Below, piece by piece: positions 17,511 to 48,656 of a stretch of DNA of 64,000 nt (the stretch's first letter is position 1; the number at the start of each line of letters is the position of its first letter). The DNA comes from Euglena gracilis. Taxonomy: Eukaryota. The stretch spans positions 44,619,847-44,683,846 of the forward strand of contig CP154954.1 of the NCBI GenBank assembly GCA_039621445.1. Reading direction: 5' to 3'. The position numbers and the translations under genes are program-made. The notes under the pieces were generated by a model that was not told where the DNA came from, searched no databases, and saw only the letters and a list, made by a program, of their open reading frames with translations.

Positions 17511-20500
17511 ATGCCTCCCCGCTCCGCGGCGCTGCCCCTCCCGCTGTTGCTGGTGGCCGCTGCCCTCCTCCCCGGCCCCGGCCCGGCGCTGGCCGCCAAA
17601 CCCCCCGCTGGTCCAGAGGTTTTTTTAAGTTTCGTGGCCCAGGGAGGGGGTGGGTGGGTCCCGGGTGCAACACAGGGAGGGCGTACAGGGTTTGGGTGGG
17701 GCGGTGTCCCCCCCACCCGTCCGGACCACCCCCCCCCCCCACCTGCCAAGGAGGGTCCGGACCGAGTGGAGCGGTCTGGGTGACCGATTTTTGGCTTGGC
17801 GCAAAGGGCCAGGCCGAACAGTTTTGACCCCCCGAAACGACCAAACGTGCCATTTTGGGCCCTTTTTATCAAAAGTGAAAAAATTTTCGGCACAAGCGCC
17901 GGAAGGAAAATTTTGACTTTTTGGGGGGTGGGGTCCCAACCCCCCTAACCCCCTCCCCAAAAGTAAGACCCCCCCTGGACGTTCCGAGCAAAAATCCATG
18001 AAATGGACCCCCCATGAAAGGAATGGCCGGAGGCCTGAAGGAAGGCACGACAAGGGGTGGAAAAATTTTTATGATCATGCATCAGTAGCACAGCTTCACT
18101 GGATAATGGTCCCCGGTCAGGGCCTTCGCCTCTTTCTCTTGTGTCTCACTTTGGCCATACTCAGAGATATCTTTATAGGGCCGCTCCTCCAGCCAAGTGA
18201 TCTCTTTCCCCGTCGCCCTGGGTCACCAGGACTCTGACTCTCACTGAATCCATGAAGCAAGTCTTCAGCAATGGCATTTTGTGCCATGTTTATGTCTATG
18301 AACGGGGAAAAAAAATGACGTGAGAATCAGTGCTTCCCACAATAATTTCCCAAAAACAAAAATTTTCCAGCAAAAAAATGCATAAAATGGACCCCCTCAG
18401 GGTTTTTCACCGGTTCGTGCCACGAACAATCACGAACAATCACGAACCAGCACGAACTTGAGATTTTGGTAAAATCACGAACAATCACGAACAATCACGA
18501 ACAATCACGAACCTGATTTTTTTGGTCACCCTTGCAGAAATGTCTTCTTCTGAGAATGACGGTGTTGTTCAATCAACCAAACAGAAAAGATAATGAAAGA
18601 GAGGTGGAAAAATGACTCCTCAAAAGCGTGCCGCCCAGGTGTCACACCTATCTTGTTTGTATTTCCCCCCTTTTGGCACCTTTTCCAGTTTGGTGGAGTG
18701 ATGGAAGTGAGAGGGTCGGAAATGTGGTGCAGTGTTTGCCATGTTTCAGTGCACTGGGCCGAGAAGACACATGCAAAGCAACATATTTCATTGTCAACTC
18801 ACAAGGGCAACCTCTTTCGCAAACCAAAGATTGTGGAAACACCTGGTCCATTAGCTGAATTGATGGATGCAACCAAAGGGGCCCAGGCACAGGGGGGGGT
18901 CCCTGCCGAGTTCCGAACTCAACCAGATAAGGGGGGGGGGTTTGGGACCCGAACTCGGCTGCCTCCAAACGTGACGTGGTGGTATTTTGTTTGTTTCAAT
19001 ATATATTTTTGTATTTTGCTTTCCCCATTAACCTAAATATTTAGATTAAAAGAGGCACAAGAAGCCAAAGTACAAGAGGAATCACCCATTTCGCCGAGGA
19101 AAAGAGAAAACCGGGCGGTTTTTTGGAAGCACGAACAATCACAAACAATCACGAACAATCACGAACAATCACGAACCGGATTTCAGGCTTCCCAGCACGA
19201 ACCAGTGGTAAACCCTGGACCCCCTCCCATGAATAAGACACCCGACCGCAACAGCAACCGACCCATGAAATGGACCCAGGGTCTTATTTGGGGGGGGGGG
19301 GGTAAATTTTAGGACCCCCCAAAAAACCCAAAAGTGGGTCCCCCTGAGCCCCCCCCCCCCCAGGTGGTGGGTGGGTGGCTGGGTCCTTTTAAAAAAAAAA
19401 GCTCTTCTCCGACCCCTGGGCGACACCCAGTTGGCGGAGCTGCGGCTCGAGGCGGAACGTCAACAATGGACCTTCGAGGTCGGGCCCACCCAGGGAGGGA
19501 ATGTCTCCCATGGCACCACAGTGCACAATCGCAACATGCACACACACACACACACACACACAAACCAAGTTGAAGTACACGCTTCCAAATTTTCTTCCGG
19601 ACATCATTCTTCTGGTGGTTGTGTGGTTGTGGTGGTTGTTGTGTGTTTTTTTATGCAAAAAACAATCTCTTGGGCGGCCAAACTCGTACTTCATCTTTTT
19701 TTTGGTCGGTGTACTCATTTTTGCACACGTCGAAAAGTTTAATTTTGGCGCTGGCGTCAAAAGAACACAAGAACTTTGAGCGAAAGGGAGCACGACGACG
19801 ACAAATCCGAGCGAATTACCATTTTTGGCCCTGGCTCTCCCGGGATTTTTGTGTTTTTTTTTAATGGTCAGCATGGCACAAAAACCCCTGGACCTATCCC
19901 CCCAAAAGTGAAAAAAGCCAACCAAAATACCAAAACCCCAGTGCAGCCACCCCCTTTGGCCCTTTGCTTGCTTTTGAAGCCCTGGGGCACGTTGTGGAGG
20001 TTTTTGAAGTTGGTCGCGAAAGAAGTGGAACCGCATGCACAACAAATACAATGGACTGTATGAGAATTCTGCCGTGCTGCATGTGTGTGCATTAGTACGT
20101 GCGTGCTTGTGTGGTCTGTTATGCGTGCCATGCGGACATCAGTGTGTTTTGTGTCGTCCGTGATGCTTATCCAAGGCAGAGGTCCCCCCCCCCCCAGGTC
20201 TTTGGACACCCGCCATCCCTGCCCACAACGACGCCACGAACCGCTCCCTCTCCCAGCTGTGCGGCTTGAAGGTGCCCCGCAACATTGACGAGCTGGTGGC
20301 TGACAACACCGCCCCACCGCCAGGGGGCCCTGGGGGGGGGGGTGGAGAACAGGGCATAGTGGCGCTCCAAGTGCTTACCCCGAAAAAGCATTTTGCCTAA
20401 ATTGGCAAAACTCGCATATATATATATATATATATATTCATATGTATGTATGTGCGTGCGTATGCATATATATATATATATATATATTATATTATATTAT

Positions 20501-47284: not shown

Positions 47285-48656
47285 GCTGCAGGAGGAAGGT
47301 TGAGGTTCGAGGGTGGGTCATTTTGAACGCTCCAAAATGCCCCTTACTATGATTCAAAGAGGCTCAAGAGGTTCCTCCTCCATTCCTGTTTTCAGGGGTT
47401 TGATGTTTTTTTTTCAGCAAAGACCGGTCCCTCTCAAAAGGGCACGGGCAGCAAGCGGAGGGGGGGGATTGACATCCGCAATTTCCTCAATTTTTCTGAA
47501 GGCCTCCAATATCGACCCCCCCCCCACCGCGGCCATGCCAAAACCAAATAAAGCACAAAGGGATCAGACATTTGGGACGACTCTCTTCCCCTCCAAAACG
47601 TGAAAGGAGGCTTTCGATCGAGGTTCACAAGGCTCCAGAACCCCCCCAAGCATGTCCAACGAAGTTCTCGAGCGTTTGTCAGTTTGTCGGGGAGGGGCCA
47701 CCGACGTTCAAGCAGCCGTCCCACGGGAGCATTCCGCCCCCTTCCTTTGGGAGGTTGAGGCACTGGTCATCCTCGCTGTCAGGGGAGGGGGAACCAGTGT
47801 TAGAGCGCATTGTTGGAGACCTCCACTGGCCACGTGGCCCGCAGTGCCCCTTGCCCCTGCCCCAACCCAGTGCCCCCGTGCCTTCCCAGCCCTCGACCAT
47901 ACATTCACTAACCCCGTTGTGACCCCCCGGGGTGGTTTTTTGAAAGTGGGTGGAGGGGGTGGGTTCGGGCCATTGGACCCCTCCCCTAGGGTGCATCACA
48001 GTCAGCCCAACCCAGCCGAGGCCACGTTGGCAGGAAAAATTCAAAGGTTCTAGGCTTAATTCGGGTTATTTTGGTTGGCAGAGTGAGTGGGTGCCCCCCC
48101 CCTGTGTGCAATGTGGCTGTTTTTTTGGTGCCTTTTATCCCTTCTTCTGGCCTGGCGCTGTTGTTTGCCTCTGGCTCATTTTGTCTGTGTATGTGGAGGT
48201 GGCCGCCCCCCCCCCCCCCGGTGGGTTGTGGGTGGGTGGGTTTTTGGTTGAGGGCAAGTTCCAATTCCCTCCCCTGAGGACGTGGATGCATGCCCTCGAC
48301 CCTTCCCGCAGCCAGACACCGGCGTACCCGGTCGGCTGCCCCTGCCGAGGGCCGGGCAGTGGGGGTTGGCATGTCACCTTCTTTGACTTGCAAGGAAACT
48401 ATGAACCAGGGGGAAATTTTTGTGCATTTTTTTTCAATTTGTGTCGGTACATTTTGGGGTTTTCGCAATTTTGGAAATCGCGGCACATTTTGCACATTTT
48501 GCACATTTTTTGATTTCCCCAATTTTCAATATTTTCTTTCCATTGTTGTGTTTTTTTCCCATAATTTTGAATATGTGCCAATTTTTTGCATAGTTTTGAA
48601 TAATTTTGTGCAGCTTTGCACATTTTTGCGCATGTTTTCCCCAGGCCGGGTTAGCA

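What the first reader, a model, noticed from the sequence alone, without database searches (positions are those of the whole stretch)
17611..47292. Non-conventional intron geometry equals clean excision of a hAT MITE plus one 8-bp TSD: candidate intron-generating transposon system
Seen: most introns here read exon|RnnCAG...CTGnnnnn|R-exon, so 3 nt precede and 5 nt follow the paired core (e.g. 19488 acccaggga...tccctgcccac 20226; 22648 gtgcagggg...ctcctggcatc 22861; 29006 ggccagggcc...ggccctgcgggt 29408). Also seen: at least eight elements with CAG...C(T/A)G termini and 8-bp TSDs (7428, 11078, 18398, 24242, 32639, 34491, 38175, 46980). Established: 8-bp TSDs and CAG/TAG termini typify hAT transposons. 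Inference: 3+5=8, so splicing at the euglenid register removes such an element plus exactly one TSD and restores the original coding sequence. Both splice junctions would then be the same TSD position (5|6), which would explain why both share a purine right after the junction. Position 6 is a purine in 6 of the 8 TSDs (e.g. gctgc|agg, ccccc|agg, acacc|aac). A transposon origin for these introns has been suggested in general terms; I cannot say whether this specific arithmetic is published. Caveat: a residual TSD is clear in only one intron here (copy 1 intron 13, gcccc|gcc versus gcccc|ggc); the others show none.
Basis: partly seen in the sequence, partly recalled or inferred. Interest (0 to 1): 0.92.

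Follow-up and report, generated by a model that had tools for sequence, protein, structure and literature searches.

The report
Transposon-shaped introns in a euglenid
This euglenid DNA holds small hAT-like jumping elements whose ends and 8-base target copies fit the odd introns of these algae, and at least one of them seems to be cut out of the RNA as such an intron.

Summary
The window is euglenid nuclear DNA with two tandem papain-type protease genes. All eight cited elements are real: CAGG...CCTG-type inverted ends and 8-bp flanking duplications, 5 perfect and 3 at 7/8. My scans added three more.

The intron register, three bases before CAG and five after CTG with a purine at the next exon, holds at the three cited introns. 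It is already published and tested by experiment (PMC12501133). It does not hold for "most" introns where I could check.

New here: a 96-bp element at 31254-31349 with a perfect 8-bp duplication sits where RNA contigs from two runs break, at 31350. An intron made of the element plus one duplication would break there. A 63-bp element at 57626-57688 is a second candidate.

Against: older introns show no duplication remnant. The only paralog-specific intron misses the arithmetic by one base. No transposase was found.

A MITE origin, TSD-like repeats and an 8-nt repeat at a strain-specific intron are in print. My seven literature searches did not find the explicit link of 3+5=8 to a hAT duplication.

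Verdict: partly supported, and a sharper form of a known hypothesis.

The parts
7428..7726 (.). MITE-like element, 299 bp, ends CAGGC...GCATG. Flanking 8-bp repeats match 7/8. Same family as 38175.
   Evidence: 88% identity to 38175-38461 over the full length.
11078..12901 (.). Longer element, 1824 bp, ends CAGGGTT...AACCCTG. Flanks match 7/8. Parent-like relative of 24242.
   Evidence: No Pfam hit in 2 of its ORFs.
18398..19217 (.). Element, 820 bp, with a perfect 8-bp duplication and subterminal short repeats. It is nested in copy-1 intron 1.
   Evidence: Its 158-aa ORF has no Pfam hit.
24242..24627 (.). MITE, 386 bp, with a perfect 8-bp duplication. It is an internal-deletion derivative of the 11078 element.
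   Evidence: 91-98% identity to both ends of 11078-12901.
31246..31357 (+). A 96-bp inverted-repeat element (31254-31349) between two perfect copies of an 8-bp duplication (31246-31253 and 31350-31357). Read as a nonconventional intron in register, it spans 31251-31354.
   Evidence: 8/8 flanks. table 8: contig pieces of runs X2 and X6 start at 31350; the element's 3' end is single-copy in the laid stretch; sequence.
32639..32880 (.). MITE, 242 bp, flanks 7/8. It lies inside the RNA-defined intron 32591-33407.
34491..34617 (.). MITE, 127 bp, with a perfect 8-bp duplication. It folds as a near-perfect hairpin.
   Evidence: -99.8 kcal/mol, z -5.97, 0 of 200 shuffles fold as well.
38175..38461 (.). 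MITE, 287 bp, with a perfect 8-bp duplication. It lies in the large intron 5 of copy 2.
44574..44668 (.). MITE, 95 bp, with a perfect 8-bp duplication. It lies about 45 nt inside copy-2 intron 12.
46980..47284 (.). MITE, 305 bp, T-rich ends, with a perfect 8-bp duplication.
   Evidence: related to 32639.
57618..57696 (+). A 63-bp element (57626-57688) of the T-rich family with flanks at 7/8, inside a Pro/Ser-repeat coding stretch. It is a candidate intron at 57623-57693.
   Evidence: removing the element plus one flank copy keeps an open frame through the repeat, but one unspliced frame is also open; the terminal stem appears in the minimum-energy fold.
19488..20226 (+). Copy-1 intron 2, in the register of 3 bases, CAG ... 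CTG, 5 bases, then a purine.
   Evidence: Flank comparison 4/8.
22648..22861 (+). Copy-1 intron 6, in register. The homologous copy-2 intron 40422-41097 is also in register.
   Evidence: Flank comparison 1/8 in each copy.
29006..29408 (+). Copy-1 intron 12 as cited, in register by sequence.
   Evidence: Frame not checked; its 3' end lies inside a 97.5% identical paralog tract.
29554..30069 (+). Copy-1 'intron 13'. Ends are CCGGCG.../...CGCCGG, not CAG/CTG. The 8-mers at the 3/5 register match 7/8.
   Evidence: an RNA piece starts at 30065; frame and a copy-2 stop codon. The copy-2 homologue has 4/8.
31419..33407 (+). Three introns with both ends seen in RNA contigs: 31419-32099, 32198-32455 and 32591-33407. 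They lie downstream of the conserved stop codon, so in the 3' UTR.
   Evidence: table 8. Only 32198-32455 pairs in the +4:-6 register; spacer sums are about 7, 8 and 9.
17611..19423 (+). Copy-1 intron 1, about 1.8 kb, absent from copy 2. Its ends resemble the T-rich MITE family. The exact junctions are unresolved.
   Evidence: In-frame spacer sums are 4, 7 or 10, not 8; flanks match 3-4/8.

Best explanation
Small non-autonomous DNA transposons live in this genome. They have CAGG...CCTG inverted ends and make 8-bp target-site duplications, which is the hAT pattern. When one lands in a transcribed exon, its two ends pair in the pre-mRNA. The euglenid nonconventional splicing system then cuts 3 nt upstream of the CAG and 5 nt downstream of the CTG. 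Because 3+5 equals the duplication length, the spliced RNA keeps exactly one copy of the target site, and the pre-insertion sequence is restored. Both cuts fall at the same place in the duplicated 8-mer, between bases 5 and 6. That would explain why the two junctions share one consensus.

Shown here: the elements, their families and their 8-bp duplications. Also shown: one element whose edge coincides with an RNA junction.

Inferred: that most nonconventional introns began this way, and that the elements belong to hAT.
For: 1. There are 11 elements with 8-bp flanking repeats, 7 perfect and 4 at 7/8, and CAG 5' ends in 11 of 11.
2. Perfect flanks are enriched: 6 at the true position against 0-1 in four shifted controls.
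3. The elements form families. 7428 and 38175 are 88% identical over the full length, and 24242 is a deletion derivative of 11078 at 91-98%. Defined elements were therefore copied; this is not random filler DNA.
4. The element at 31254-31349 has a perfect duplication. Contig pieces from two runs of two studies begin exactly at 31350, the leftmost placement of an intron made of one duplication plus the element. The same contigs skip 31419-32099 and 32198-32455, so they are spliced RNA. The element's 3' end is unique in the laid stretch, so the break is not a repeat mask.
5. In register this intron meets every item of the published code, N3-CAG / CTG-N5 | purine (PMC12501133, abstract and sections 8 and 11).
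6. The 57626-57688 element is a second candidate.
7. In the literature, a strain-specific new intron has eight-nucleotide direct repeats (PMC4770533, section 7).
8. The published consensus is the same at both junctions: pyrimidine before the cut, purine after it, and C at the third base after it (PMC4770533 section 3; PMC11170887 section 10).
9. 7 of the 11 elements would satisfy the published code on the + strand.
Against: 1. The upstream partner of the 31350 junction was not shown by the tool. One contig has 96 nt between 30204 and 31350, which is also the element's length. A form that retains the element therefore cannot be excluded for that contig.
2. Older introns show no duplication remnant: 4, 1, 1, 3, 3 of 8 for five junction pairs that I judged plausible out of the many code-consistent solutions. 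About 2 of 8 is expected from the window's base composition, where the per-base match chance is 0.254.
3. The only intron present in one paralog and absent in the other (copy-1 intron 1) stays in frame only with spacer sums of 4, 7 or 10. Its flanks match 3-4 of 8.
4. RNA-defined introns deviate. 31419-32099 has a sum of 7 and no CAG/CTG, 32591-33407 has about 9, and copy-2 intron 2 has CTG plus 4.
5. No transposase domain was found in 13 ORFs scanned.
6. The 8-mers do not follow the nTnnnnAn target pattern that I recall for many hAT families: T at base 2 in 1 of 11, A at base 7 in 2 of 11.
7. Short direct repeats are also common at conventional introns, 84.4% of all introns (PMC12501133, section 5). 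Repeats at junctions therefore need not be transposon footprints.
Confidence: 0.55

Rival explanations
1. Coincidence of geometry. The 3-nt and 5-nt spacers are set by the shape of the unknown splicing enzyme. The hAT-like elements merely share a common CAG...CTG end. An element that happens to fit gets spliced, but most nonconventional introns arose in other ways.
For: The spacer on the 3' side tolerates 5 or 6 nt (PMC12501133, sections 8 and 11). Spacer sums of 7 to 9 occur here. Old introns show no remnant. Only 1-2 of the 11 elements look like whole introns; the rest sit inside larger introns or between genes.
Against: The published consensus is the same at both junctions, including an unpaired C at the third base, which enzyme geometry alone does not predict (PMC4770533 section 3; PMC11170887 section 10). 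The one published strain-specific intron has repeats of exactly eight nt (PMC4770533, section 7). The 31254 element fits exactly.
Confidence: 0.22
2. Double-strand-break repair. New introns are filler DNA captured at staggered breaks, and the direct repeats are repair footprints, not transposase footprints.
For: The authors who found the 8-nt repeats proposed this (PMC4770533, section 7 and conclusions). Direct repeats also occur at conventional introns (PMC12501133, section 5).
Against: The flanked DNA here is not arbitrary. It has terminal inverted repeats and belongs to families with several copies at unrelated sites, each with its own 8-bp flank. The repeat length is a constant 8 in 11 elements.
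Confidence: 0.1
3. The 31350 break is not a splice of the element. It could be the 3' end of a larger or different intron, or an alignment artefact, and the elements are ordinary intronic MITEs with no role as introns.
For: The 5' partner was not displayed. Contig X1 record 1 has 96 nt unaccounted for, equal to the element's length. The minimum-energy fold of 31241-31362 does not pair the ends (z +1.81).
Against: Two contigs from two studies break at the same base. That base is the exact element/duplication boundary. The tool's placement was leftmost at the three other junctions, as an 8-nt repeat would require. Neither alternative intron for the X1 contig (30205-31149 or 30205-31253) fits the published code (by eye).
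Confidence: 0.13

Closest known systems
Euglenid nonconventional introns and the MITE-origin hypothesis (Milanowski et al. 2014, PMC3935182, passages; 2016, PMC4770533, sections 3 and 7; review in Mob DNA 2024, PMC11282704, passages including the Fig. 3D legend)
   Same: Paired CAG at +4..+6 and CTG at -8..-6, pyrimidine|purine junctions, TSD-like repeats at the junctions, MITE-like insertion proposed as the source, and an eight-nt repeat at a strain-specific intron.
   Different: Those papers name no transposon superfamily and report no elements outside introns; the 2014 paper states that none were then known in euglenids. They do not state that 3+5 equals the duplication length. They read the 8-nt repeat as break repair. 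Here the same genome shows free-standing element families with 8-bp duplications and the same ends.
Noncanonical splicing code 5'-N3CDG-/-CH'GN5-6|R (Nomura et al. 2025, PMC12501133; abstract and sections 5, 8, 11, and discussion passages)
   Same: It works when introns are moved into a foreign exon, so the signal lies in the intron ends.
   Different: The paper treats the spacers as random sequence of fixed length and only 'suspects' a transposon origin. It makes no link to an 8-bp duplication.
Introner elements of Micromonas and other algae, as described in PMC11282704
   Same: Short DNA transposons with inverted ends and target duplications become introns. Part of the duplication ends up inside the intron, so that splicing restores the exon.
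   Different: Those have 3-nt duplications, GT/GC-AG sites and use the spliceosome. One splice site is carried by the element and one is taken from the duplication. Here both cuts lie in the duplication and are measured from the paired ends, and the removal machinery is unknown.
Maize Ds, a hAT element, acting as a de novo intron (Giroux et al. 1994; seen only as an entry in the reference list of PMC3935182, content recalled)
   Same: A hAT-type element with an 8-bp duplication is removed from the transcript.
   Different: Removal there uses cryptic spliceosomal sites and is usually imprecise. Here a dedicated register would make it exact.

Membership tests
hAT-superfamily non-autonomous elements (MITEs) | 8-bp target-site duplication | tested here: met
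   11 elements: 7 perfect 8/8 and 4 at 7/8. Perfect flanks: 6 at the true position against 0-1 in shifted controls.
hAT-superfamily non-autonomous elements (MITEs) | Short terminal inverted repeats starting with CAG/TAG (motif recalled) | tested here: met
   The 5' end is CAG in 11 of 11. The reverse complement of the 3' end is CAG in 9 of 11 and CAT in 2. 13-17 of 20 terminal bases are complementary in the 8 cited elements.
hAT-superfamily non-autonomous elements (MITEs) | An autonomous partner encoding a hAT transposase with matching ends | tested here: inconclusive
   No Pfam family at E<=1 in 3 ORFs and at E<=0.01 in 10 ORFs of the window. Only these 13 of the 101 ORFs of 170 aa or more, plus a few shorter ones, were scanned. 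No whole genome is held.
hAT-superfamily non-autonomous elements (MITEs) | Target consensus nTnnnnAn (recalled; typical of many but not all hAT families) | tested here: not met
   T at base 2 in 1 of 11 and A at base 7 in 2 of 11 duplications.
Euglenid nonconventional intron (published code) | 3 nt, then C-D-G at the 5' end; C-H-G, then 5-6 nt at the 3' end; middle bases complementary; purine at the next exon | tested here: met
   Met by 31251-31354 and 57623-57693, and by 19488-20226, 22648-22861, 40422-41097 and 29006-29408. Not met by 31419-32099 or 32591-33407.
Euglenid nonconventional intron (published code) | Removal from RNA | tested here: inconclusive
   For 31251-31354, the 3' junction was seen in 2 contigs of 2 runs and the 5' junction was not displayed.
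Euglenid nonconventional intron (published code) | Release as a circular RNA with full-length ends | not testable with these tools
   Known from the literature only (PMC11282704, passage).
Introner-type intron-generating transposon | Many near-identical copies that each form a whole intron at unrelated gene positions | tested here: inconclusive
   Families exist, but only 1-2 of 11 copies look like whole introns. A single 64-kb window cannot count copies.

The most novel reading that the evidence does not exclude
The nonconventional splicing system of euglenids is tuned to one transposon class. Any hAT-like element with CAG...CTG ends and an 8-bp duplication is erased from the RNA base-perfectly. 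Exon insertions are then nearly harmless, and this let such elements become most of the introns of these genomes. The boldest form: the unknown cutting and joining enzyme is itself derived from, or co-evolved with, the elements' transposase and measures the same 8-nt interval.
Probability: 0.12. Interest if true: 0.9.

Novelty: new variant of a known kind. Interest (0 to 1): 0.62.

Why it matters
The origin of the nonconventional introns has been open since they were found. They make up about 70% of introns in one Euglena genome (PMC12501133). The MITE idea has stood for a decade without any named element.

If the link holds, the question turns into simple tests. One is to count 8-nt flank identity in young introns. 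Another is to match intron ends to element families. A third is to knock a native element with its duplication into the existing reporter exon.

It would also give a clean example of a host RNA-processing system that neutralises one class of DNA transposon exactly. That would explain the shared consensus at the two junctions.

Tried and rejected
- Whole-genome tests were not possible: no genome is held for this window.
Copy-1 introns 1-11 have no RNA evidence here.
- The run search listed no holder on record as RNA. I used contig runs guessed to be RNA; they proved spliced at several junctions.
- The lay lists only the best-supported joints, and 243 were not shown. The joint I needed, 31245-31253 to 31350-31358, could not be read.
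- A search for the organism's own proteins to fix exon ends found only distant papain relatives, best 61% identity. tblastn with them hit only 2 of the exons per copy.
I dropped it and used frame coordinates instead.
- That code-and-frame search gives several chance solutions per intron, because the 3-nt motifs carry little information. It cannot by itself define junctions.
- Empty-site searches for 8 elements within the window found none.
- The copy-2 counterpart of the 31350 exon aligns only over its 3' part, so there is no empty site for the 96-bp element.
- The inverted-repeat scan of copy-1 intron 1 gave no clean outer ends.
- Earlier notes of this scan held nothing on this genome.
- I considered scanning metagenome contigs for more copies of a MITE family. 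I did not run it, because it could add duplications but no RNA.
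Full report
WHAT THE WINDOW IS

The window is GC-rich eukaryotic DNA with long microsatellites. It holds two tandem paralogs of a papain-family cysteine protease on the + strand (PF00112 relatives). Copy 1 runs from about 17.5 kb and copy 2 from about 35.9 kb. Eleven colinear exon blocks are 79-99% identical, while the introns are unrelated. The intron style marks the DNA as euglenid. No whole genome is held, and earlier notes of this scan have nothing on it.

OBSERVATION 1: THE ELEMENTS

All eight cited starts have a partner end. Of the terminal 20 bases, 13-17 form an inverted repeat. 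The eight bases directly outside the two ends repeat each other, perfectly in five cases and 7/8 in three. Two elements end in ..CATG rather than ..CTG.

I tested this against chance in two scans.
- Of 284 CAG...CTG pairs with at least 11/14 terminal complementarity, 8 have flanks at 7/8 or better. With the right flank shifted by 8 or 16 bases the counts are 1 and 0.
- Of 5512 looser pairs, 6 have perfect flanks against 0, 1, 1, 1 at four shifts. The 7/8 class alone is not enriched: 14 against 10, 9, 6, 13.

The scans added three elements: 31254-31349, 44574-44668 and 57626-57688.

The eleven fall into families.
- 7428 and 38175 are 88% identical end to end.
- 24242 is an internal-deletion copy of the 1.8-kb element at 11078, at 91-98% identity.
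- 32639 and 46980 are related.

Defined mobile elements were therefore copied to unrelated sites, each with its own 8-bp duplication. No transposase domain was found in the 13 ORFs I scanned.

OBSERVATION 2: THE INTRON REGISTER

The three cited introns read as stated. This register is not new. It is the published euglenid consensus (PMC4770533, section 3; PMC11170887, section 10). It has been defined by knock-in genetics as 5'-N3CDG-/-CH'GN5-6|R, with a strict 3-nt spacer on the donor side and 5 nt, or tolerably 6, on the acceptor side (PMC12501133, abstract and sections 8 and 11).

I could not confirm that most introns here follow it. A search by reading frame plus the code found solutions for most intervals. 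Many of these are chance hits, and only one intron has a solution at the homologous place in both copies: 22648-22861 and 40422-41097.

Three introns have both ends visible in RNA contigs: 31419-32099, 32198-32455 and 32591-33407. Only the middle one pairs in the +4:-6 register, and their spacer sums are about 7, 8 and 9. The RNA piece for copy-2 exon 3 starts four bases after the CTG, not five.

The 96-bp element at 31254-31349 has inverted ends. It lies between two perfect copies of one 8-mer, at 31246-31253 and 31350-31357. In the one lay of RNA contigs allowed, contigs of two runs from two studies have a piece that begins exactly at 31350. The same contigs skip 31419-32099 and 32198-32455, so they are spliced RNA (table 8).

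At the three fully seen junctions the tool placed the cut leftmost. For an intron made of one duplication plus the element, the leftmost placement resumes at 31350. The element's 3' end is single-copy in the laid stretch; only its inner G-run is repeated. A repeat mask therefore cannot explain a break at that base.

In the euglenid register the intron is 31251-31354: three bases, CAG ... CTG, five bases, then G. There is a pyrimidine before each cut, a purine after each cut, and C at the third base after each cut.

The weak point is the upstream partner, which was not displayed. One contig of a third run has 96 nt between 30204 and 31350. That could be an exon at 31150-31245, or it could be the retained element, which is also 96 nt long. 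Neither alternative gives an upstream intron that fits the code. I therefore call the splice likely, not shown.

A second candidate is the 63-bp element at 57626-57688, with flanks at 7/8. It belongs to the same T-rich family as 46980 and lies inside a Pro/Ser-repeat coding stretch. Removing it with one flank copy keeps an open frame through the repeat, but one unspliced frame is open as well. Its flanks lie in periodic sequence, which makes a repeat less surprising. Its ends pair in the minimum-energy fold.

RESULTS AGAINST THE INTERPRETATION

- I picked five junction pairs as the most plausible among the solutions: copy-1 introns 2, 6 and 8, and copy-2 introns 6 and 9. Their two 8-mers at the 3/5 register match at 4, 1, 1, 3, 3 of 8. 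The window's composition gives a per-base match chance of 0.254, or about 2 of 8.
However, its ends are CCG/CGG rather than CAG/CTG, both 8-mers are pure C/G, and the copy-2 homologue has 4/8. It may be chance.
- The only intron present in one paralog and absent in the other is copy-1 intron 1. Its ends resemble the T-rich family, but it stays in frame only with spacer sums of 4, 7 or 10. Its flanks match 3-4 of 8. Its terminal CCCCTG aligns with exon sequence of copy 2. I could not resolve its junctions without RNA.
- Short direct repeats are also common at conventional introns (PMC12501133, section 5).

WHAT IS IN PRINT

- A MITE-like origin was proposed in 2014 because of the inverted ends. 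That paper noted that no transposons were then known in euglenids (PMC3935182, abstract and passages).
- The 2016 paper reports an intron found in one E. agilis strain only, with eight-nucleotide direct repeats at its junctions. The authors read this as break repair (PMC4770533, section 7).
- A 2024 review draws the CAG/CTG as inverted repeats and the junction repeats as TSD-like (PMC11282704, Fig. 3D legend and text passages).
- The 2025 paper only suspects MITE-like elements (PMC12501133, discussion passage).

My seven literature searches found no paper that names hAT, or that states that the 3-nt and 5-nt spacers add up to the duplication length. Subscription journals and supplements were not searched.

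HOW IT MOST LIKELY WORKS

An element with CAGG...CCTG ends inserts with an 8-bp duplication. In the transcript the ends pair. The nonconventional system measures 3 nt outward on the 5' side and 5 nt on the 3' side. It joins the exons and releases the intron, as a circle according to the review (PMC11282704).

The joined exons carry bases 1-5 of the first duplicate and bases 6-8 of the second. That is one intact target site. Base 6 must be a purine. It is in 9 of the 11 duplications here, and 7 of the 11 elements meet the whole code on the + strand.

The model also accounts for three published rules that otherwise look arbitrary: the pyrimidine before both cuts, the purine after both cuts, and the C at the third base after both cuts. 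Under the model each pair of positions is the same base of the duplication. I put this model at 0.55.

The rivals are:
- coincidence of enzyme geometry (0.22);
- break repair (0.10), which the element families argue against;
- the 31350 break not being a splice of the element (0.13).

MEMBERSHIP

The elements work like hAT MITEs. They meet the 8-bp duplication and the CAG-type ends. They do not meet the recalled nTnnnnAn target pattern, and no transposase partner was found. The superfamily call is therefore a lead. Other superfamilies with 8-bp duplications are not excluded.

VERDICT

The general idea is known. The explicit arithmetic, the free-standing element families in the same genome, and an element that appears to be an intron with an intact duplication are a sharper, testable form of it.

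Noticed in passing
26816-27009 vs 43501-43694; 29380-29579 vs 45028-45227: Two exon tracts are 99.5% and 97.5% identical between the paralogs, while the other exon blocks are 79-91%. The second tract runs about 28 nt into the intron. This looks like recent gene conversion.
   Followed up: partly
30160-33528: Both copies conserve a stop codon, at about 30160 in copy 1. RNA contigs nevertheless continue through at least four more spliced exons downstream, so nonconventional introns are removed from the 3' UTR, where no reading frame needs protecting.
   Followed up: partly
3078-4400: About 46 tandem copies of a 27-nt unit, 94-99% alike, open in frame. It probably encodes a His/Glu/Lys-rich repeat protein.
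   Followed up: no
55664-55870 and 56653-56780: 12-nt periodic repeats encoding Pro/Ser/Glu motifs. They belong to the gene that also holds the 57626 element.
   Followed up: no
51758-51960 and 52047-52190: Two arrays of an 11-nt C-rich unit, 19 copies in all.
   Followed up: no
37451-40118, 40786-41452, 45455-46788, 48123-48779: Contig depth in the RNA-like runs is in the thousands here, against tens on the protease exons. These are probably expressed high-copy repeat families. ORFs from three of these stretches had no Pfam hit.
   Followed up: partly
18560-19036: The 820-bp element carries a 158-codon open frame with a Cys-x2-Cys ... His-x4-His spacing that looks like a zinc finger. It has no Pfam match.
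   Followed up: partly
14130-16048: Five copies of a 62-nt unit built from GCGC-rich palindromes in an AT-richer stretch. Unexplained.
   Followed up: no
42199-42303: An RNA contig piece defines a 105-nt exon-like block in copy 2. Its translation does not resemble copy-1 exon 8 at about 23066-23165. It may be another transcript, or copy 2 may have diverged here.
   Followed up: no
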